Below, in pieces: positions 4,873-57,574 of a stretch of 64,000 bases of DNA. Source of the DNA: Escherichia coli (GTDB taxonomy: Bacteria; Pseudomonadota; Gammaproteobacteria; Enterobacterales; Enterobacteriaceae); the NCBI RefSeq assembly GCF_013122565.1, contig NZ_CP053258.1; one strand, written 5' to 3'. How positions within the stretch are numbered: the first letter of the stretch is position 1; each line of letters starts with the position of its first letter. Under the pieces are notes generated by a model. The model was not told where the DNA came from. It ran no database searches and worked only from the letters and a program-made list of their open reading frames with translations. The position numbers and the translations under genes were made by a program.

Positions 4873-4970
4873 GCCGGATGCGGCGTGAACGCCTTATCCG
4901 GCCTACAAGATCGTGCAAATTCAATATATTGCATGAGCCACGTAGGCCTGATAAGCGTAGCGCATCAGGC
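4873..4970. repeat. BIME (two inverted REP elements)
   Basis: GCCGGATGCGGCGTGAACGCCTTATCCGGCCTAC and GTAGGCCTGATAAGCGTAGCGCATCAGGC, canonical REP palindromes between convergent yfiE and srmB. Confidence 0.9.
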
Positions 4971-10499: not shown

Positions 10500-11455
10500 T
10501 GAAGCAACTTTGGTTTGCCATGTCATTAGTGACAGGTAGCCTGTTATTCTCTGCTAACGCCTCGGCCACTCCCGCGTCCGGGGCGTTATTACAGCAGATG
10601 AACCTGGCCAGTCAGTCACTGAATTACGAGCTGTCATTCATCAGCATCAATAAACAGGGTGTTGAGTCTCTGCGTTATCGACATGCACGCCTCGATAACC
10701 GTCCTCTTGCACAATTGTTGCAAATGGATGGCCCGCGCCGGGAAGTGGTACAGCGCGGCAATGAAATCAGCTATTTTGAACCGGGACTTGAACCGTTCAC
10801 GCTTAATGGCGATTACATTGTTGATTCTCTGCCATCGCTCATCTATACCGATTTCAAACGCCTTTCTCCTTACTACGACTTTATCTCCGTCGGGCGCACG
10901 CGTATTGCTGATCGTCTTTGCGAAGTTATTCGCGTGGTTGCCCGAGATGGTACACGCTACAGCTACATCGTGTGGATGGACACCGAATCGAAATTACCGA
11001 TGAGGGTTGATCTCCTTGATCGCGATGGTGAAACGCTGGAACAATTTCGCGTGATTGCTTTTAATGTCAATCAGGATATCAGCAGCAGTATGCAGACGCT
11101 GGCGAAGGCAAATTTGCCGCCGTTGCTTTCTGTTCCTGTAGGTGAAAAAGCTAAATTCAGCTGGACGCCAACCTGGTTGCCACAGGGTTTTAGCGAAGTT
11201 TCCAGTAGTCGACGTCCGCTACCGACGATGGACAACATGCCTATCGAATCACGTCTCTATTCCGACGGATTATTCAGCTTCTCGGTAAACGTTAACCGCG
11301 CTACGCCATCGAGCACCGATCAGATGTTGCGCACCGGACGCAGAACCGTCAGTACAAGCGTACGTGATAACGCCGAAATCACCATTGTCGGTGAACTGCC
11401 GCCGCAAACGGCGAAACGCATTGCCGAGAATATTAAGTTCGGGGCAGCGCAATGA
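10499..11455 (+). CDS. rseB: Sigma-E regulatory protein RseB (periplasmic)
   Basis: 318-aa ORF with N-terminal signal peptide MKQLWFAMSLVTGSLLFSANASA. Confidence 0.95.
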   Translation: MKQLWFAMSLVTGSLLFSANASATPASGALLQQMNLASQSLNYELSFISINKQGVESLRYRHARLDNRPLAQLLQMDGPRREVVQRGNEISYFEPGLEPFTLNGDYIVDSLPSLIYTDFKRLSPYYDFISVGRTRIADRLCEVIRVVARDGTRYSYIVWMDTESKLPMRVDLLDRDGETLEQFRVIAFNVNQDISSSMQTLAKANLPPLLSVPVGEKAKFSWTPTWLPQGFSEVSSSRRPLPTMDNMPIESRLYSDGLFSFSVNVNRATPSSTDQMLRTGRRTVSTSVRDNAEITIVGELPPQTAKRIAENIKFGAAQ

Positions 11456-11931
11456 TCAAAGAGTGGGCTACCGTCGTCTCCTGGCAAAACGGGCAGGCGC
11501 TGGTCAGTTGTGATGTTAAAGCCTCATGCAGCAGCTGCGCTTCACGCGCCGGTTGCGGTAGCCGCGTGTTGAATAAACTTGGCCCGCAAACCACGCATAC
11601 CATTGTCGTACCCTGTGATGAGCCGTTAGTGCCGGGGCAAAAAGTGGAATTGGGGATCGCCGAAGGCAGCCTGCTTAGCTCCGCATTACTGGTTTATATG
11701 TCGCCGCTGGTGGGATTATTCCTCATCGCTTCGCTATTTCAGCTACTCTTTGCTTCTGACGTCGCAGCATTATGTGGTGCTGTCCTCGGCGGTATTAGCG
11801 GGTTCCTGATTGCGCGTGGCTACTCGCGTAAGTTTGCTGCCCGGGCAGAATGGCAACCGATCATCTTAAGCGTGGCATTGCCGCCTGGCCTTGTGCGATT
11901 TGAAACATCTTCGGAAGACGCGAGCCAGTGA
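11452..11931 (+). CDS. rseC: Sigma-E regulatory protein RseC
   Basis: 159-aa ORF, ATGA overlap with rseB; cysteine-rich N-terminus and two hydrophobic segments. Confidence 0.93.
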   Translation: MIKEWATVVSWQNGQALVSCDVKASCSSCASRAGCGSRVLNKLGPQTTHTIVVPCDEPLVPGQKVELGIAEGSLLSSALLVYMSPLVGLFLIASLFQLLFASDVAALCGAVLGGISGFLIARGYSRKFAARAEWQPIILSVALPPGLVRFETSSEDASQ

Positions 11932-12128
11932 TTTCACTGGCTTTGTTGCATTTTGCATAACAAATGCGAGGACGTTTCCAGATACCACAATCCATACGGT
12001 ATGAACATTTCCTCGCCTCAATGTTGTAGTGTAGAATGCGGCGTTTCTATTAATACAGACGTTAAGCTCAGAACAGCGACTTCTAAAAGCCTGGTTAACC
12101 GGGCATTAAGGCACAATAATCATACTTT

Positions 12129-13928
<1,800 letters not shown>

Positions 13929-14971: not shown

Positions 14972-15062
14972 GAGATAAATCTCCCGTGGCTAACGACATC
15001 CCCCGTCGTTGTGTATAGAATATTCCCCCGAAGTTTAAGGTTGGCACCTCCAGGTTGCCACG

Positions 15063-15156
15063 GCACACGAAACAGCGTTGGTCCCCATATACCGGTAAAC
15101 TGAAACTGCAGCGAAGCAGTTAGCAGAACCATGTATATCAGGTCTGTTTCGTGTGC
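15063..15156 (+). promoter_or_regulatory. rnc leader long-range hairpin (likely the RNase III autoregulatory processing site)
   Basis: Perfect 13-bp complement gcacacgaaacag (15063-15075) / ctgtttcgtgtgc (15144-15156) closing an approximately 94-nt structured 5' UTR element ending 34 nt before the rnc ATG. Confidence 0.6.
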
Positions 15157-15159
15157 TGA

Positions 15160-16772
<1,613 letters not shown>

Positions 16773-18654: not shown

Positions 18655-18727
18655 TAAAGTAAAACCCCCGAACTGGTAAGGAACGGGGGTTTTACTTTAT
18701 TTTGTGCAGCACGCACCCTCAATGAGG
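18655..18727 (-). ncRNA. ohsC: OhsC antitoxin sRNA of the ShoB/OhsC type I toxin-antitoxin pair (ends approximate)
   Basis: Known to be encoded divergently upstream of shoB. Minus-strand RNA from about 18727 would begin with a 20-22-nt segment complementary to the shoB 5' UTR (18952-18973) and end at the bidirectional terminator; a CATAAT -10-like hexamer sits just upstream on the minus strand. Boundaries are inferred, not measured. Confidence 0.45.
18661..18700. terminator. Bidirectional intrinsic terminator (acpS on plus strand, candidate OhsC 3' end on minus strand)
   Basis: Perfect 10-bp stem aaaacccccg/cgggggtttt with 13-nt loop, flanked by A- and T-runs on both sides. Confidence 0.8.
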
Positions 18728-23442: not shown

Positions 23443-23607
23443 TTAGTTAATTCTCTGTGTCGTGCGCGTCCCAGCTTGAAAAAACGTAATAATAGTGAAA
23501 GGTTTACTCATAAATGAGCGGCATTTTGCGTAAACCTGCGCCAGATGGCAACTTATTACAGCCATTGGCGGCACGCGTTGCTAATTCACGATGGTGATTT
23601 TATTTCC

Positions 23608-23623
23608 ACGCAAACGGTTTCGT
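23608..23623 (+). promoter_or_regulatory. PurR operator (PUR box) in purL control region
   Basis: ACGCAAACGGTTTCGT, near-perfect match to the 16-bp PUR box palindrome, about 80 bp upstream of the purL ATG and adjacent to a TATAAT hexamer at 23641-23646. Confidence 0.7.
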
Positions 23624-23699
23624 CAGCGCATCAGATTCTTTATAATGACGCCCGTTTCCCCCCCTTGGGTACACCGAAAGCTTAGAAGACGAGAGACTT

Positions 23700-26600
23700 A
23701 TGATGGAAATTCTGCGTGGTTCGCCTGCATTGTCGGCATTCCGAATCAACAAACTGCTGGCACGTTTTCAGGCTGCCAGGCTCCCGGTTCACAATATTTA
23801 CGCCGAGTATGTCCATTTTGCTGACCTCAATGCGCCGTTAAACGATGATGAGCACGCACAACTTGAACGCCTGCTGAAATATGGCCCGGCACTCGCCAGC
23901 CACGCCCCGCAAGGCAAACTCCTGCTGGTGACCCCGCGTCCTGGCACCATCTCTCCCTGGTCTTCGAAAGCGACCGATATTGCCCATAACTGCGGGCTAC
24001 AACAGGTAAACCGCCTTGAGCGCGGCGTTGCTTACTATATAGAAGCCGGTACGCTGACCAATGAACAATGGCAGCAGGTTACCGCTGAACTGCACGACCG
24101 CATGATGGAAACGGTCTTTTTTGCTTTAGATGATGCAGAGCAGTTGTTTGCCCACCATCAACCGACTCCGGTTACCAGCGTTGATTTGCTGGGGCAGGGC
24201 CGTCAGGCGCTGATCGACGCTAACCTGCGTCTTGGCCTGGCTCTGGCGGAAGATGAAATTGACTATCTGCAGGATGCTTTCACAAAGCTTGGTCGTAACC
24301 CGAACGACATCGAGCTGTATATGTTCGCTCAGGCGAACTCTGAGCACTGCCGCCACAAAATTTTTAATGCCGACTGGATTATCGACGGTGAACAGCAGCC
24401 GAAATCGCTGTTTAAGATGATCAAAAACACCTTCGAAACCACGCCGGATCACGTTCTCTCTGCTTATAAAGATAACGCCGCCGTAATGGAAGGTTCTGAA
24501 GTGGGCCGCTACTTTGCTGACCACGAAACGGGCCGCTACGATTTCCATCAGGAACCGGCGCATATCCTGATGAAAGTTGAAACTCACAACCACCCGACGG
24601 CGATTTCTCCGTGGCCGGGTGCGGCGACCGGTTCCGGCGGTGAAATCCGCGATGAAGGTGCCACCGGGCGCGGCGCAAAGCCGAAAGCGGGTCTGGTTGG
24701 TTTCTCCGTTTCCAACCTGCGAATTCCTGGCTTCGAACAGCCGTGGGAAGAAGATTTCGGTAAGCCTGAGCGCATTGTCACCGCGCTGGACATCATGACC
24801 GAAGGCCCGCTGGGCGGCGCGGCGTTTAACAACGAATTTGGTCGTCCGGCTCTGAATGGCTACTTCCGTACTTATGAAGAAAAAGTGAACAGCCACAACG
24901 GCGAAGAGCTGCGCGGTTATCACAAACCGATCATGCTGGCGGGCGGGATCGGCAACATTCGCGCCGATCACGTACAAAAAGGCGAGATCAACGTCGGTGC
25001 GAAGCTGGTCGTTCTCGGCGGCCCGGCAATGAACATCGGTCTTGGCGGCGGAGCGGCGTCTTCCATGGCGTCAGGTCAGTCTGATGCCGACCTCGACTTT
25101 GCTTCCGTACAGCGCGACAACCCGGAGATGGAGCGTCGCTGCCAGGAAGTGATCGACCGTTGCTGGCAGCTTGGTGATGCCAACCCAATCCTGTTTATCC
25201 ACGACGTCGGCGCTGGCGGTCTTTCTAACGCGATGCCGGAACTGGTGAGCGACGGCGGGCGCGGCGGTAAATTTGAACTGCGCGATATTCTAAGCGACGA
25301 ACCGGGCATGAGCCCGCTGGAAATCTGGTGTAACGAATCCCAGGAACGCTACGTGCTGGCGGTTGCTGCCGATCAATTACCGCTGTTTGACGAACTGTGT
25401 AAGCGTGAGCGCGCGCCATACGCGGTGATTGGTGAAGCGACCGAAGAACTGCATCTTTCTCTGCACGATCGTCATTTTGATAATCAGCCGATCGATCTGC
25501 CGCTGGACGTCCTGCTTGGTAAAACGCCGAAGATGACCCGCGATGTACAAACGCTGAAAGCGAAGGGCGATGCGCTGGTCCGTGAAGGGATCACCATTGC
25601 AGACGCGGTGAAACGCGTACTGCATCTGCCGACCGTGGCGGAGAAAACTTTCCTGGTGACCATCGGTGACCGCAGCGTAACCGGCATGGTGGCGCGCGAT
25701 CAGATGGTGGGGCCGTGGCAGGTGCCGGTCGCTAACTGCGCGGTCACTACCGCCAGCCTCGACAGCTACTACGGTGAAGCGATGGCGATTGGCGAGCGTG
25801 CGCCGGTTGCGCTGCTGGATTTCGCCGCCTCTGCCCGTCTGGCGGTCGGTGAAGCGTTAACCAATATTGCCGCAACACAGATTGGCGATATCAAACGCAT
25901 CAAACTTTCCGCCAACTGGATGGCGGCGGCAGGCCACCCTGGTGAAGATGCGGGCCTGTATGAAGCCGTTAAAGCCGTGGGCGAAGAGCTTTGTCCGGCG
26001 CTGGGCCTGACGATCCCGGTGGGTAAAGACTCCATGTCGATGAAAACCCGCTGGCAGGAAGGTAACGAAGAGCGTGAAATGACGTCGCCGCTGTCGCTGG
26101 TGATTTCTGCATTTGCCCGCGTGGAAGATGTACGTCACACCATCACGCCGCAGCTTTCTACCGAAGATAACGCACTGCTGCTGATTGATTTGGGCAAAGG
26201 CAATAACGCGCTGGGCGCAACGGCGCTGGCGCAGGTTTATCGTCAGCTTGGCGACAAACCGGCAGATGTACGCGATGTCGCGCAACTGAAAGGCTTCTAT
26301 GACGCGATTCAGGTGCTGGTTGCACAGCGTAAGCTGCTCGCATACCACGACCGCTCTGATGGCGGCCTGCTGGTAACGCTGGCGGAAATGGCCTTTGCTG
26401 GTCATTGCGGCATTGACGCAGATATCGCCTCTCTGGGTGACGATCGCCTGGCGGCGTTGTTTAACGAAGAACTGGGGGCGGTGATTCAGGTTCGTGCCGC
26501 TGACCGTGAAGCGGTCGAGTCCGTACTGGCACAGCATGGGCTTGCTGATTGCGTCCATTATGTTGGGCAGGCGGTTTCCGGTGACCGTTTTGTGATTACC

Positions 26601-27587
26601 GCCAATGGGCAGACTGTATTCAGCGAAAGCCGCACTACGTTGCGTGTCTGGTGGGCAGAAACTACCTGGCAGATGCAGCGCCTGCGTGACAACCCGGAGT
26701 GTGCCGATCAGGAGCATCAGGCGAAATATAACGACGCCGATCCGGGCCTGAATGTAAAACTGTCGTTCGATATCAACGAAGATGTGGCAGCACCGTATAT
26801 TGCCACTGGCGCACGTCCGAAAGTTGCCGTACTGCGTGAGCAGGGCGTGAACTCGCATGTTGAAATGGCGGCAGCTTTCCACCGTGCGGGCTTTGATGCT
26901 ATCGACGTGCATATGAGCGACCTGCTGACTGGACGCACGGGACTGGAGGATTTCCACGCCCTGGTCGCGTGCGGCGGTTTCTCCTACGGTGATGTACTGG
27001 GTGCCGGTGAAGGTTGGGCGAAGTCTATCCTGTTCAATGACCGTGTACGCGATGAGTTTGCAACCTTCTTCCATCGTCCGCAAACGCTGGCGCTGGGGGT
27101 ATGTAACGGTTGCCAGATGATGTCTAACCTGCGCGAACTGATCCCAGGTAGTGAGTTGTGGCCACGTTTTGTGCGCAATACCTCCGATCGCTTTGAAGCG
27201 CGTTTCAGCCTGGTTGAAGTAACCCAAAGCCCGTCTCTGCTGTTGCAGGGGATGGTGGGCTCGCAAATGCCGATTGCTGTCTCTCATGGTGAAGGGCGCG
27301 TGGAAGTGCGTGATGCGGCGCATCTGGCGGCACTGGAAAGCAAAGGGCTGGTGGCACTGCGCTATGTCGATAACTTCGGCAAAGTCACTGAAACCTACCC
27401 GGCTAACCCGAACGGTTCACCGAACGGTATTACGGCGGTTACGACTGAAAGCGGTCGAGTTACCATTATGATGCCGCACCCGGAACGTGTTTTCCGTACT
27501 GTCAGCAACTCCTGGCATCCGGAAAACTGGGGCGAGGATGGCCCATGGATGCGCATTTTCCGCAATGCGCGTAAGCAGTTGGGGTAA
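23700..27587 (+). CDS. purL: Phosphoribosylformylglycinamidine synthase
   Basis: 1295-aa [26 protein letters not shown]...; large single-chain FGAM synthase with C-terminal glutaminase domain. Confidence 0.98.
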
Positions 27588-27920: not shown

Positions 27921-28104
27921 AGTGGCTCATTCACCGACTTATGTCAGCCCCTTCGGGACGTGCTACATAAAATTCGAATGACGCACAACAAGGTGCCTGC
28001 CGTCCAACTTCTGATATCAGCGTAGCTATATCAACCATCGGGCGAAACGTCGAGTTAGGCACCGCCTTATTCCATAACAAAGCCGGGTAATTCCCGGCTT
28101 TGTT
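27921..28104 (+). ncRNA. glmY: GlmY small RNA (ends approximate)
   Basis: Transcript from about 12 nt downstream of the -12 element (AGUGGCUCAUUCACCGACUUAUGUCAGCCCC...) to a terminator hairpin at 28078-28102; location between purL and glrK matches GlmY. Confidence 0.8.
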
Positions 28105-30468: not shown

Positions 30469-31792
30469 ACCTGCGCATTTATTATTGGTCGATGACGATC
30501 CGGGATTGCTGAAACTGCTTGGCCTGCGCCTGACCAGCGAAGGCTACAGTGTGGTCACGGCGGAAAGTGGCGCTGAAGGATTACGGGTACTGAATCGCGA
30601 AAAAGTAGATTTAGTTATCAGCGACCTGCGGATGGATGAAATGGACGGTATGCAGCTGTTTGCTGAAATCCAGAAAGTGCAGCCGGGAATGCCGGTAATT
30701 ATCCTTACCGCGCATGGTTCTATTCCCGATGCCGTTGCAGCAACACAGCAGGGCGTTTTTAGTTTCCTCACCAAGCCTGTCGATAAAGACGCGCTATATC
30801 AGGCAATTGACGATGCGCTGGAACAATCCGCGCCAGCCACCGACGAACGCTGGCGCGAGGCGATTGTCACCCGCAGCCCGCTGATGCTGCGTTTGCTGGA
30901 ACAGGCGCGGCTGGTGGCGCAATCAGACGTCAGCGTTTTGATTAACGGCCAGAGCGGCACCGGGAAAGAGATTTTCGCCCAGGCTATCCACAACGCCAGC
31001 CCGCGCAATAGCAAACCATTTATTGCTATTAACTGTGGCGCATTGCCCGAGCAATTGCTGGAGTCGGAGCTGTTTGGTCATGCGCGTGGCGCGTTTACTG
31101 GCGCTGTCAGCAATCGCGAAGGTTTATTCCAGGCGGCGGAAGGCGGTACGCTATTTCTCGATGAGATTGGCGATATGCCCGCACCGTTGCAGGTCAAACT
31201 GCTGCGCGTGTTGCAGGAGCGTAAAGTGCGCCCGCTGGGCAGTAACCGCGATATTGATATCGACGTGCGGATTATTTCCGCCACTCACCGCGACCTGCCA
31301 AAAGCGATGGCGCGCGGGGAATTCCGTGAAGATCTCTATTACCGCCTCAACGTTGTCAGCCTGAAAATTCCGGCTCTGGCGGAGCGCACAGAAGATATTC
31401 CGCTACTGGCAAATCACCTGTTGCGCCAGGCGGCAGAGCGACATAAACCGTTTGTCCGCGCGTTCTCCACCGATGCGATGAAACGCCTGATGACTGCGAG
31501 CTGGCCGGGTAATGTACGCCAGTTGGTCAACGTGATTGAACAGTGCGTGGCGCTGACCTCATCTCCGGTGATTAGTGATGCATTAGTAGAGCAGGCGCTG
31601 GAGGGCGAAAACACGGCGCTGCCAACCTTTGTCGAAGCGCGTAATCAGTTTGAACTCAACTATTTGCGTAAGCTGCTGCAAATCACCAAAGGTAACGTCA
31701 CCCATGCGGCGAGAATGGCGGGGCGCAACCGGACAGAATTTTATAAACTGCTTTCCCGACACGAGCTGGATGCAAACGATTTCAAGGAATGA
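30458..31792 (+). CDS. glrR: Sigma-54-dependent response regulator GlrR (QseF)
   Basis: ORF track 30356..31792; ATG at 30458 ([18 protein letters not shown]...) gives 444 aa; receiver domain, AAA+ sigma-54 activation domain with GAFTGA motif, C-terminal HTH; overlaps qseG by 11 nt. Confidence 0.95.
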
Positions 31793-31816: not shown

Positions 31817-32191
<375 letters not shown>

Positions 32192-33426: not shown

Positions 33427-33452
33427 ATGGTCTTCCTTTTTTTGCATCTTAA

Positions 33453-33475
33453 TTGATGTATCTCAAATGCATCTT
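33453..33475 (-). promoter_or_regulatory. NsrR operator in hmp promoter
   Basis: Minus-strand AAGATGCATTTgAGATACATCAA, an 11-1-11 imperfect inverted repeat resembling the NsrR consensus, 27 bp upstream of the hmp ATG. Confidence 0.6.
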
Positions 33476-33621
33476 ATAAAAAATAGCCCTGCAATGTAAA
33501 TGGTTCTTTGGTGTTTTTCAGAAAGAATGTGATGAAGTGAAAAATTTGCATCACAAACCTGAAAAGAAATCCGTTTCCGGTTGCAAGCTCTTTATTCTCC
33601 AAAGCCTTGCGTAGCCTGAAG

Positions 33622-33637
33622 GTAATCGTTTGCGTAA
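33622..33637 (-). promoter_or_regulatory. Possible PurR box in glyA control region
   Basis: Minus-strand ACGCAAACGATTACCT: first half-site perfect, second half-site weak; glyA is a known PurR regulon member. Confidence 0.35.
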
Positions 33638-33753
33638 ATTCCTTTGTCAAGACCTGTTATCGCACAATGATTCGGTTATACTGTTCGCCGTTGTCCAACA
33701 GGACCGCCTATAAAGGCCAAAAATTTTATTGTTAGCTGAGTCAGGAGATGCGG

Positions 33754-35007
33754 ATGTTAAAGCGTGAAATGAACATTGCCGATTATGATGCCGAACTGTG
33801 GCAGGCTATGGAGCAGGAAAAAGTACGTCAGGAAGAGCACATCGAACTGATCGCCTCCGAAAACTACACCAGCCCGCGCGTAATGCAGGCGCAGGGTTCT
33901 CAGCTGACCAACAAATATGCTGAAGGTTATCCGGGCAAACGCTACTACGGCGGTTGCGAGTATGTTGATATTGTTGAACAACTGGCGATCGATCGTGCGA
34001 AAGAACTGTTCGGCGCTGACTACGCTAACGTCCAGCCGCACTCCGGCTCCCAGGCTAACTTTGCGGTCTACACCGCGCTGCTGGAACCAGGTGATACCGT
34101 TCTGGGTATGAACCTGGCGCATGGCGGTCACCTGACTCACGGTTCTCCGGTTAACTTCTCCGGTAAACTGTACAACATCGTTCCTTACGGTATTGATGCT
34201 ACCGGTCATATCGACTACGCCGATCTGGAAAAACAAGCCAAAGAACACAAGCCGAAAATGATTATCGGTGGTTTCTCTGCATATTCCGGCGTGGTTGACT
34301 GGGCGAAAATGCGTGAAATCGCTGACAGCATCGGTGCTTACCTGTTTGTTGATATGGCGCACGTTGCGGGCCTGGTTGCTGCTGGCGTCTACCCGAACCC
34401 GGTTCCTCATGCTCACGTTGTTACTACCACCACTCACAAAACCCTGGCGGGTCCGCGCGGCGGCCTGATCCTGGCGAAAGGTGGTAGCGAAGAGCTGTAC
34501 AAAAAACTGAACTCTGCCGTTTTCCCTGGTGGTCAGGGCGGTCCGTTGATGCACGTAATCGCCGGTAAAGCGGTTGCTCTGAAAGAAGCGATGGAGCCTG
34601 AGTTCAAAACTTACCAGCAGCAGGTCGCTAAAAACGCTAAAGCGATGGTAGAAGTGTTCCTGGAACGCGGCTACAAAGTGGTTTCCGGCGGTACTGATAA
34701 CCATCTGTTCCTGGTTGATCTGGTAGATAAAAACCTGACCGGTAAAGAAGCAGACGCCGCTCTGGGCCGTGCTAACATCACCGTCAACAAAAACAGCGTA
34801 CCGAACGATCCGAAGAGCCCGTTTGTGACCTCCGGTATTCGCGTGGGTACTCCGGCAATTACGCGTCGCGGCTTCAAAGAAGCAGAAGCGAAAGAACTGG
34901 CTGGCTGGATGTGTGACGTGCTGGACAGCATCAATGATGAAGCCGTTATCGAGCGCATCAAAGGTAAAGTTCTCGACATCTGCGCACGTTACCCGGTTTA
35001 CGCATAA
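33754..35007 (+). CDS. glyA: Serine hydroxymethyltransferase
   Basis: ORF track 33748..35007; ATG at 33754 ([22 protein letters not shown]...) gives 417 aa; PLP-lysine motif [14 protein letters not shown]. Confidence 0.98.
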
Positions 35008-57463: not shown

Positions 57464-57574
57464 TAAAAAGAATTCAGAATCAGGCCGGGGCGTATCGCGC
57501 TCCGTAAACACGGTCGTACATCCAGCCGGTAGCCTGATTCCTTGCATTGAGTGATGTACGGAGTTTATAGAGCA

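What the first reader, a model, noticed from the sequence alone, without database searches (positions are those of the whole stretch)
23608..23623. Near-consensus PUR box at purL and a weaker candidate at glyA in the same window
ACGCAAACGGTTTCGT upstream of purL is an almost perfect PurR operator. A half-consensus site (ACGCAAACGATTACCT, minus strand 33622-33637) lies in the glyA control region. Both genes are established PurR regulon members, so the motif calls are probably real, but the glyA site is weak enough that its position should be checked.
Basis: partly seen in the sequence, partly recalled or inferred. Interest (0 to 1): 0.15.

Follow-up and report, generated by a model that had tools for sequence, protein, structure and literature searches.

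The report
Known PurR operators at purL, glyA, glnB

Summary
Both motif calls are real and already known. ACGCAAACGGTTTCGT sits exactly at 23608-23623, 77 bp before the purL ATG. The glyA motif exists, but at 33620-33635, not 33622-33637. Both 16-mers are the ones listed for purL and glyA in the E. coli K-12 PurR ChIP-chip table (Cho 2011), and both are in the RegulonDB PurR site list. The three control regions in the window are 100% identical to K-12.

A weight matrix built from 26 other ChIP-supported sites scores purL at 22.1 bits and glyA at 21.5 bits. The next best hit in the window scores 12-14 bits. About 0.002-0.02 hits this strong are expected per 64 kb.

The glyA site is therefore not weak. 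Its 3 mismatches to the ideal palindrome are the commonest value among the 28 published sites. Its ChIP signal was higher than purL's.

In Enterobacteriaceae loci from other species, the purL box was found in 71 of 71 and the glyA box in 58 of 58, at the same positions.

A third RegulonDB PurR 16-mer lies at 31770-31785, in the last codons of glrR and 68 bp before glnB. It is kept only in Escherichia and some Citrobacter.

Novelty: none. Interest: low.

The parts
23608..23623 (.). purL PurR operator (PUR box), ACGCAAACGGTTTCGT
   Evidence: Sequence read. It scores 22.1 bits on a leave-out matrix, with P = 4e-8. It is identical to the purL motif in Cho 2011 Table 1. It is present in 71 of 71 Enterobacteriaceae loci, identical in 63, and is the most conserved 16-bp window of the 200 bp upstream.
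23641..23646 (+). purL -10-like hexamer TATAAT. The -35 position, 17 bp upstream (23618-23623), falls inside the PUR box.
   Evidence: Read. The hexamer is invariant across 70 distinct upstream sequences. The start site was not verified, so the geometry is inferred.
23700..27587 (+). purL coding sequence (phosphoribosylformylglycinamidine synthase)
   Evidence: ORF; annotation of the matching E. coli record.
33620..33635 (.). glyA PurR operator, AGGTAATCGTTTGCGT on + (ACGCAAACGATTACCT on -)
   Evidence: Sequence read. It scores 21.5 bits, with P = 3e-8. It is identical to the glyA motif of Cho 2011 and to a RegulonDB-listed site. A PUR box is present at -121 to -136 from the ATG in 58 of 58 loci. 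The right half is nearly invariant and the left half varies at low-information positions.
33644..33682 (+). Conserved glyA core-promoter block: TTGTCA 33644-33649, CTGTTA 33654-33659, TATACT 33677-33682
   Evidence: Conservation profile and alignment. The consensus scan found TTGTCA paired with a poorly conserved AATGAT. Which hexamers are actually used was not resolved.
33754..35007 (+). glyA coding sequence (serine hydroxymethyltransferase)
31770..31785 (.). glnB PurR operator, ATGCAAACGATTTCAA on + (TTGAAATCGTTTGCAT on -). It lies inside the last codons of glrR, 68 bp before the glnB ATG.
   Evidence: Third best matrix hit in the window at 12.4-14.2 bits, with P = 5.6e-6, or 0.0014 expected per 250 bp. 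The same 16-mer is in the RegulonDB PurR list. glnB is a published PurR target that ChIP-chip did not detect. It is kept in 14 of 80 loci (window, K-12-like E. coli, other Escherichia species and some Citrobacter).
31853..32191 (+). glnB coding sequence (PII)

Best explanation
The 16-bp imperfect palindromes at 23608-23623 and 33620-33635 are the operators through which the LacI-family purine repressor PurR controls purL and glyA in E. coli. A PurR dimer loaded with hypoxanthine or guanine recognises the two half-sites around the central CpG. This is established knowledge of the family.

At purL the operator covers the -35 position of a promoter with a consensus TATAAT. Bound PurR should therefore keep RNA polymerase off the promoter. 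The geometry is read from the sequence; the occlusion step is inferred.

At glyA the operator ends 8 bp upstream of the conserved core-promoter block. It lies between that block and conserved upstream boxes that resemble MetR sites. Bound PurR probably lowers transcription modestly, by hindering upstream polymerase contacts or activator contacts rather than by covering the -10/-35 elements (inferred).

A third, lower-scoring PurR site at 31770-31785, inside the end of glrR, is the published glnB operator.

Together the three sites tie purine synthesis, one-carbon supply and a nitrogen signal protein to the purine pool.
For: Identity to published sites:
- Exact sequence identity with the purL and glyA motif instances inside PurR ChIP-chip peaks in K-12.
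- All three 16-mers are in the RegulonDB PurR site list.
- The glyA site carries 'confirmed' evidence in RegulonDB.
- Deleting purR raises glyA mRNA and protein, and PurR binds a glyA promoter fragment in gel-shift and microscale thermophoresis (MST) assays (PMC6658569).
- The control regions are 100% identical to K-12, with a consistent coordinate offset.

Statistics:
- The independent matrix gives 22.1 and 21.5 bits, against a random 64-kb maximum of 15.7 +/- 1.9.
- Exact P values are 3-4e-8.

Conservation:
- The purL box is in 71 of 71 related loci and the glyA box in 58 of 58, at fixed distance from the ATG.
- Mean identity within the box is 0.99 (purL) and 0.93 (glyA), against 0.72-0.74 for the rest of each upstream region.
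- The positions that vary between species (4 in purL; 3, 4 and 7 in glyA) include the lowest-information PUR-box position, position 4.

Mechanism: Cho et al. state that PurR sites generally lie in the -35/-10 region and act on initiation.
Against: - The primary footprint papers (Steiert 1990 and 1992, Lorenz 1996, He 1993) are not in the library, so protected bases were not read directly.
- Transcription start sites could not be retrieved, because the supplement tables were truncated. Operator-to-promoter distances therefore rest on conserved hexamers only.
- At glyA the hexamer assignment is ambiguous: TTGTCA and TATACT are 27 bp apart.
- ChIP-chip peaks are several hundred bp wide, and the motif inside each was placed by a motif scan, not by protection.
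- The correlation between variability across species and matrix information is only suggestive (rho -0.48, p = 0.06 for glyA).
- The glnB site was not detected by ChIP-chip. Its score alone is at chance level for 64 kb (0.36 expected).
Confidence: 0.95

Rival explanations
1. The matches are chance resemblances to the PUR-box consensus and have no function.
For: By mismatch count alone, 0.51 hits are expected per 64 kb, and 15 of 100 shuffles give 2 or more.
Against: - Matrix scores are 6 bits above the random 64-kb maximum, with 0.002-0.02 such hits expected.
- Both hits fall in the control regions of two known regulon genes.
- Both are conserved in every related locus examined.
- Both are identical to sites under ChIP peaks.
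Confidence: 0.01
2. The boxes are conserved mainly for another reason. One possibility is that they are promoter or upstream elements. Another is that they are operators of a different LacI-family protein such as RbsR, the closest PurR paralog with a similar motif. In either case PurR binding would be secondary.
For: - PurR arose from RbsR and kept its motif (PMC4052901).
- The purL box overlaps the -35 position, and the glyA box abuts a strongly conserved promoter block, so promoter constraint contributes to conservation.
- 28 of 315 windows in the glyA spacer are at least as conserved as the box.
Against: - PurR ChIP enrichment at both loci responds to adenine.
- Deleting purR raises glyA expression, and PurR binds the glyA fragment in vitro.
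- The glyA left half changes between genera yet keeps high PurR matrix scores of 15-23 bits. That fits selection for PurR binding rather than for a fixed promoter sequence.
Confidence: 0.04
3. The glyA site is bound but has little regulatory consequence: occupancy without meaningful control.
For: - 57% of PurR-bound genes showed no significant expression change in Cho 2011. I did not see whether glyA was among the responders.
- The operator lies upstream of the core promoter, not over it.
Against: - Deleting purR increased glyA mRNA and GlyA protein.
- RegulonDB lists footprint, site-mutation and ChIP as evidence types for PurR sites and rates the glyA site 'confirmed' by cross-validation.
- The box is kept in 58 of 58 species across many genera.
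Confidence: 0.1

Closest known systems
E. coli K-12 purL PurR operator (RegulonDB; Cho 2011: U00096.2 2,693,642-2,693,657)
   Same: Identical 16-mer, and the whole mltF-purL spacer is identical. Same position relative to purL.
   Different: Nothing detected. The window is another E. coli strain, at most 98.9% identical to the database genomes over the wider region.
E. coli K-12 glyA PurR operator (RegulonDB 'confirmed'; Cho 2011: 2,683,648-2,683,663)
   Same: Identical 16-mer, and the whole hmp-glyA spacer is identical.
   Different: Nothing detected.
E. coli K-12 glnB PurR operator (He, Choi and Zalkin 1993, as curated in RegulonDB)
   Same: The 16-mer TTGAAATCGTTTGCAT of the RegulonDB list occurs here 68 bp before glnB. 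The region is identical to K-12.
   Different: The list does not name the genes. Assigning this 16-mer to glnB rests on its location here and on glnB being a curated target. It lies in coding sequence and is poorly conserved, unlike the other two sites.
Strong pur-gene operators such as purT, purF and purHD
   Same: Same 16-bp palindrome with a central CG. The matrix scores of purL and glyA (about 21-22 bits) fall among the pur-gene operators, which span 19-25 bits.
   Different: The glyA operator lies upstream of the core promoter rather than between -35 and -10, where Cho et al. place 44% of sites.
RbsR operators (the paralogous LacI-family repressor)
   Same: Related palindromic motif with a central CG. 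PurR is described as retaining the RbsR motif.
   Different: Different ligand logic: RbsR binds DNA without its ligand, while PurR needs a corepressor. RbsR binding at these sites was not tested.

Membership tests
PurR operator (PUR box) of the enterobacterial PurR regulon | 16-bp imperfect palindrome with a central CpG that matches the PurR motif well above chance | tested here: met
   purL scores 22.1 bits and glyA 21.5 bits on a matrix built without them. Exact P is 3-4e-8, and 0.002-0.02 such hits are expected per 64 kb. Mismatches to the ideal palindrome are 2 and 3.
PurR operator (PUR box) of the enterobacterial PurR regulon | Located in the control region of a gene of the purine, one-carbon or nitrogen set regulated by PurR | tested here: met
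   The boxes lie 77 bp before the purL ATG and 119 bp before the glyA ATG, in non-coding spacers. Both genes are listed as PurR targets.
PurR operator (PUR box) of the enterobacterial PurR regulon | Occupied by PurR in vivo or in vitro in a corepressor-dependent way | not testable with these tools
   Literature only. ChIP-chip peaks over both sites are stronger with adenine. PurR binds the glyA promoter in gel-shift and microscale thermophoresis (MST) assays. RegulonDB rates the glyA site 'confirmed'. These data apply base for base, because the regions are identical to K-12.
PurR operator (PUR box) of the enterobacterial PurR regulon | Conserved at the orthologous position in related species that have PurR | tested here: met
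   The purL box is in 71 of 71 loci and the glyA box in 58 of 58. The boxes are more conserved than the rest of their spacers. Presence of purR in those genomes was not checked. PurR orthologs are reported throughout Enterobacteriales.
PurR operator (PUR box) of the enterobacterial PurR regulon | Footprinted bases coincide with the 16-mer | not tested
   The primary footprint papers are not held. Only the curated RegulonDB sequence could be compared, and it matches.
glnB PurR operator | Matches the PurR motif above chance and is conserved | tested here: inconclusive
   It scores 12.4-14.2 bits. That gives 0.36 expected per 64 kb but 0.0014 per 250 bp upstream region. It is identical to a RegulonDB-listed site. 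It is kept in only 14 of 80 loci, is lost in the two Salmonella loci, and was not seen by ChIP-chip.

The most novel reading that the evidence does not exclude
PurR control of glnB may have been kept across Enterobacteriaceae by operator turnover.

Escherichia and some Citrobacter carry the box inside the last codons of glrR. Fifty other loci (Enterobacter, Kosakonia, Kluyvera, Lelliottia and others) lack it. They instead carry a different PUR-like palindrome, GAGCAAyCGrTTACGm, in the glrR-glnB spacer, 33-61 bp before glnB and just after a TATGAT -10-like hexamer.

The two arrangements are almost mutually exclusive: 1 locus has both and 14 have neither. The positions that vary in the second palindrome (1, 7, 10, 16) are low-information PUR-box positions.

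Whether PurR binds the second palindrome is untested. It may already be catalogued in comparative-genomics resources that I could not consult.
Probability: 0.3. Interest if true: 0.25.

Novelty: already known. Interest (0 to 1): 0.05.

Why it matters
It matters little for discovery. The finding re-identifies two curated PurR operators in a stretch of E. coli whose control regions are identical to K-12.

The useful outcomes are corrective:
- The glyA coordinates need a 2-base shift.
- The glyA box should be treated as a standard-strength site. Judging sites by distance from an idealised palindrome is misleading, because the palindrome overstates specificity at positions 2, 4 and 7.
- The window holds a third known PurR site, at glnB.

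The only mildly open point is whether PurR control of glnB moved to a different operator in other enterobacterial genera.

Tried and rejected
- Primary footprint papers: Steiert 1990 (PMC213358 and PubMed id), Steiert 1992, Lorenz and Stauffer 1996, and He 1993 (PMC204761) are all not held.
- Start-site tables: the supplements of Kim 2012 and the Cappable-seq paper were truncated before 2.68 Mb, so no glyA or purL start site was obtained.
- Full-text search for promoter names (glyAp, purLp, glnBp) returned only glutamine-binding-protein papers.
- Simple mismatch search with shuffles does not by itself separate the glyA hit from chance. It was replaced by a leave-out weight matrix.
- Rfam scan: no RNA family overlaps either control region, so an RNA-element reading of the palindromes was dropped.
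- Other matrix hits in the window (27078, 5202, 38049, 47674 and others, 9-12 bits) are at chance level and lie inside genes. They were not pursued.
- The consensus promoter scan did not report the purL promoter. Its glyA call used a poorly conserved -10, so it was used only as a guide.

Full report
**What is in the sequence**

The window carries mltF (-), purL (+, 23700-27587), glmY, glrK/qseE, qseG, glrR, glnB (+, 31853-32191), hmp (-) and glyA (+, ATG at 33754). The gene order comes from the ORF list and the annotation of matching E. coli records.

The region is E. coli proper. It is 98.7-98.9% identical to the best database genomes and 91-95% identical to other Escherichia species.

ACGCAAACGGTTTCGT is at 23608-23623, exactly as reported.

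The glyA motif is AGGTAATCGTTTGCGT on the + strand, which is ACGCAAACGATTACCT on the - strand.

**Is it more than chance?**

Counting mismatches to the ideal palindrome is a poor test. About 0.51 hits with 3 or fewer mismatches are expected per 64 kb, and 15 of 100 shuffles gave two or more.

I therefore built a weight matrix from the 26 other motif instances in the K-12 PurR ChIP-chip table (PMC3159470 Table 1), leaving out purL and glyA. Results:

| Sequence | Score (bits) |
|---|---|
| purL box | 22.1 |
| glyA box | 21.5 |
| Next best hit in the window | 12.4 |
| Random 64-kb maximum | 15.7 +/- 1.9 |

The mean number of random hits as good as glyA was 0.005-0.02. Exact P values from the score distribution are 4e-8 and 3e-8 per position, or 0.002-0.003 expected per 64 kb.

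**Identity with published sites**

- Cho et al. list ACGAAACCGTTTGCGT for purL (2,693,642-657) and AGGTAATCGTTTGCGT for glyA (2,683,648-663). These are the same 16-mers.
- Both also appear in the RegulonDB list of known PurR sites reproduced in PMC2585596 Table 2.
- The mltF-purL spacer, the hmp-glyA spacer and the glrR-glnB junction of the window are 100% identical to K-12 MG1655.
- The K-12 (NC_000913.3) positions of the purL and glyA boxes both differ from Cho's by 1978 bp. That is a single consistent offset between genome versions.
- RegulonDB's evidence paper names glyA among the PurR sites raised to 'confirmed' by cross-validating footprint, site-mutation and ChIP evidence (PMC3548332).
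- A later study found higher glyA mRNA and protein in a purR deletion. It also found PurR binding to a 212-bp glyA promoter fragment by gel shift and microscale thermophoresis (MST) (PMC6658569).

I could not read the original footprint papers. The agreement is therefore with the curated site sequence, not with protected bases that I inspected.

**Is the glyA site weak?**

No.

- On the independent matrix it equals purL: 21.5 against 22.1 bits. On a strand-symmetric version it scores 21.1-21.5 against 20.8.
- Its three departures from the ideal palindrome are at positions 2, 4 and 7 in Cho's orientation. At those positions the 28 published sites are themselves mixed: G at position 2 in 13 of 28, T at position 4 in 8 of 28, and T at position 7 in 3 of 28.
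- Three mismatches is the commonest value among the 28 sites. Seven sites are closer to the ideal and twelve are further.
- In ChIP-chip the glyA region reached log2 2.08 with adenine and 1.13 without. purL reached 1.88 with adenine and was not called without it. Peak height is not affinity, but it does not suggest a weak site.

**Conservation**

One scan of species-representative genomes with GlrK returned 80 Enterobacteriaceae loci (78-99% GlrK identity). Where the contig extends far enough, each spans purL to glyA.

- *purL box.* The best matrix hit upstream of purL is the same box in 71 of 71 loci. It is identical in 63 and carries one change in 8. That change falls at the lowest-information position of the motif. 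The box lies 90-107 bp before the ATG.
- *glyA box.* A box is present in 58 of 58 loci, 121-136 bp before the ATG. CGTTTGCGT is almost invariant. The left half varies (AGGTAAT, AGCCAAT, AGGAAAA, AGGTAAA, ACGTAAT) while scores stay at 15-23 bits.
- *Compared with the flanks.* Mean identity to the window sequence is 0.99 in the purL box and 0.93 in the glyA box, against 0.72-0.74 elsewhere in the spacers. The purL box is the single most conserved 16-bp window of its region. The glyA box is matched or exceeded by 28 of 315 windows, mostly the adjacent promoter block.
- *Variability against information content.* The rank correlation between variability across species and motif information is in the expected direction but only suggestive (rho -0.48, p = 0.06 for glyA).

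**How it most likely works**

PurR is a LacI-family repressor. It binds DNA only when loaded with hypoxanthine or guanine (and established knowledge).

*At purL.* An invariant TATAAT lies at 23641-23646. The -35 position, 17 bp upstream, falls at 23618-23623, inside the box. The simplest mechanism is exclusion of RNA polymerase, in line with Cho's statement that PurR sites generally lie in the -35/-10 region. The start site itself was not verified.

*At glyA.* The box ends 8 bp before a fully conserved TTGTCAAGACCTGTTATCGC block. A conserved TATACT follows at 33677-33682. TTGTCA and TATACT are 27 bp apart, so they cannot both belong to one standard promoter. The consensus scan paired TTGTCA with AATGAT, which is poorly conserved.

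Whichever hexamers are used, the box centre lies roughly 50-62 bp upstream of the likely start. That places it downstream of conserved TGAA-type boxes (33537-33580) that resemble MetR sites.

I infer that PurR dampens transcription here by interfering with upstream polymerase or activator contacts. That would fit modest repression. My recollection of about two-fold repression comes from the 1990 paper and was not verified here.

**A third site**

The next best matrix hit is ATGCAAACGATTTCAA at 31770-31785, scoring 12.4-14.2 bits. It overlaps the last codons of glrR (L D A N D F K E stop) and ends 68 bp before the glnB ATG.

- Its reverse complement, TTGAAATCGTTTGCAT, is in the RegulonDB PurR list.
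- glnB is a curated PurR target that ChIP-chip failed to detect.
- The score alone is at chance level for 64 kb (0.36 expected), but it is unlikely within a 250-bp upstream region (0.0014 expected).
- It is kept in 14 of 80 sequences compared (the window and 79 related loci): the window, the K-12-like E. coli record, other Escherichia species and part of Citrobacter. It is degraded in the two Salmonella loci (ATGCGAATGATTTCAA, 1.3 bits).
- Fifty other loci instead carry a different PUR-like palindrome, GAGCAAyCGrTTACGm, in the glrR-glnB spacer just after TATGAT. Only one locus has both, and 14 have neither.

This pattern would fit operator turnover. It is untested and may already be catalogued elsewhere.

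**Comparison with what is known, and verdict**

All three sites are members of the E. coli PurR regulon as already curated. Sequence, position and context are identical to K-12. Nothing departs from the known system, so the finding is already known and of low interest.

The corrections are:
- a 2-base coordinate shift for glyA;
- the removal of 'weak' from the description of the glyA site;
- the addition of the glnB site.

Noticed in passing
window 31770-31785: A third PurR 16-mer, the published glnB operator, lies inside the last codons of glrR. It is identical to a RegulonDB PurR site, yet ChIP-chip did not detect PurR at glnB.
   Followed up: yes
L021, L035, L049, L060 and about 46 other loci, 33-61 bp before the glnB ATG: A different PUR-like palindrome, GAGCAAyCGrTTACGm (9-14 bits), sits in the glrR-glnB spacer just after TATGAT. 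It occurs in genera that lack the Escherichia-type glnB box, and the two are almost mutually exclusive. This may be operator turnover.
   Followed up: partly
window 27921-28068 (+): The GlmY small RNA gene lies between purL and glrK (Rfam RF00128, 147 bits). Other Rfam hits in the window: AsrC 11416-12247 (-), rncO 15030-15244 (+), ohsC 18656-18720 (-), iscRS 57464-57573 (+), ES036 4907-4949 (+).
   Followed up: no
window 23516-23552: A strongly conserved non-coding block lies upstream of the purL box. It coincides with a minus-strand promoter-like pair (TTGCCA, 17 bp spacer, CAAAAT) pointing at mltF, so it is probably the mltF promoter.
   Followed up: no
window 33537-33580 and 33447-33480: The hmp-glyA spacer has two further conserved blocks. 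One holds TGAA-type boxes that resemble MetR sites. The other is an inverted repeat over the hmp promoter that resembles the NsrR site. Both identifications rest on memory only.
   Followed up: no
window 33644-33682: The conserved TTGTCA and the conserved TATACT of the glyA promoter region are 27-28 bp apart, too far for one standard sigma-70 promoter. It is unresolved which hexamers are used and what the other conserved one does.
   Followed up: partly
window 23650-23699: The purL leader, including a C-rich run (GTTTCCCCCCCTTGGG, about 23655-23670), is well conserved across genera. No Rfam family matches it.
   Followed up: no
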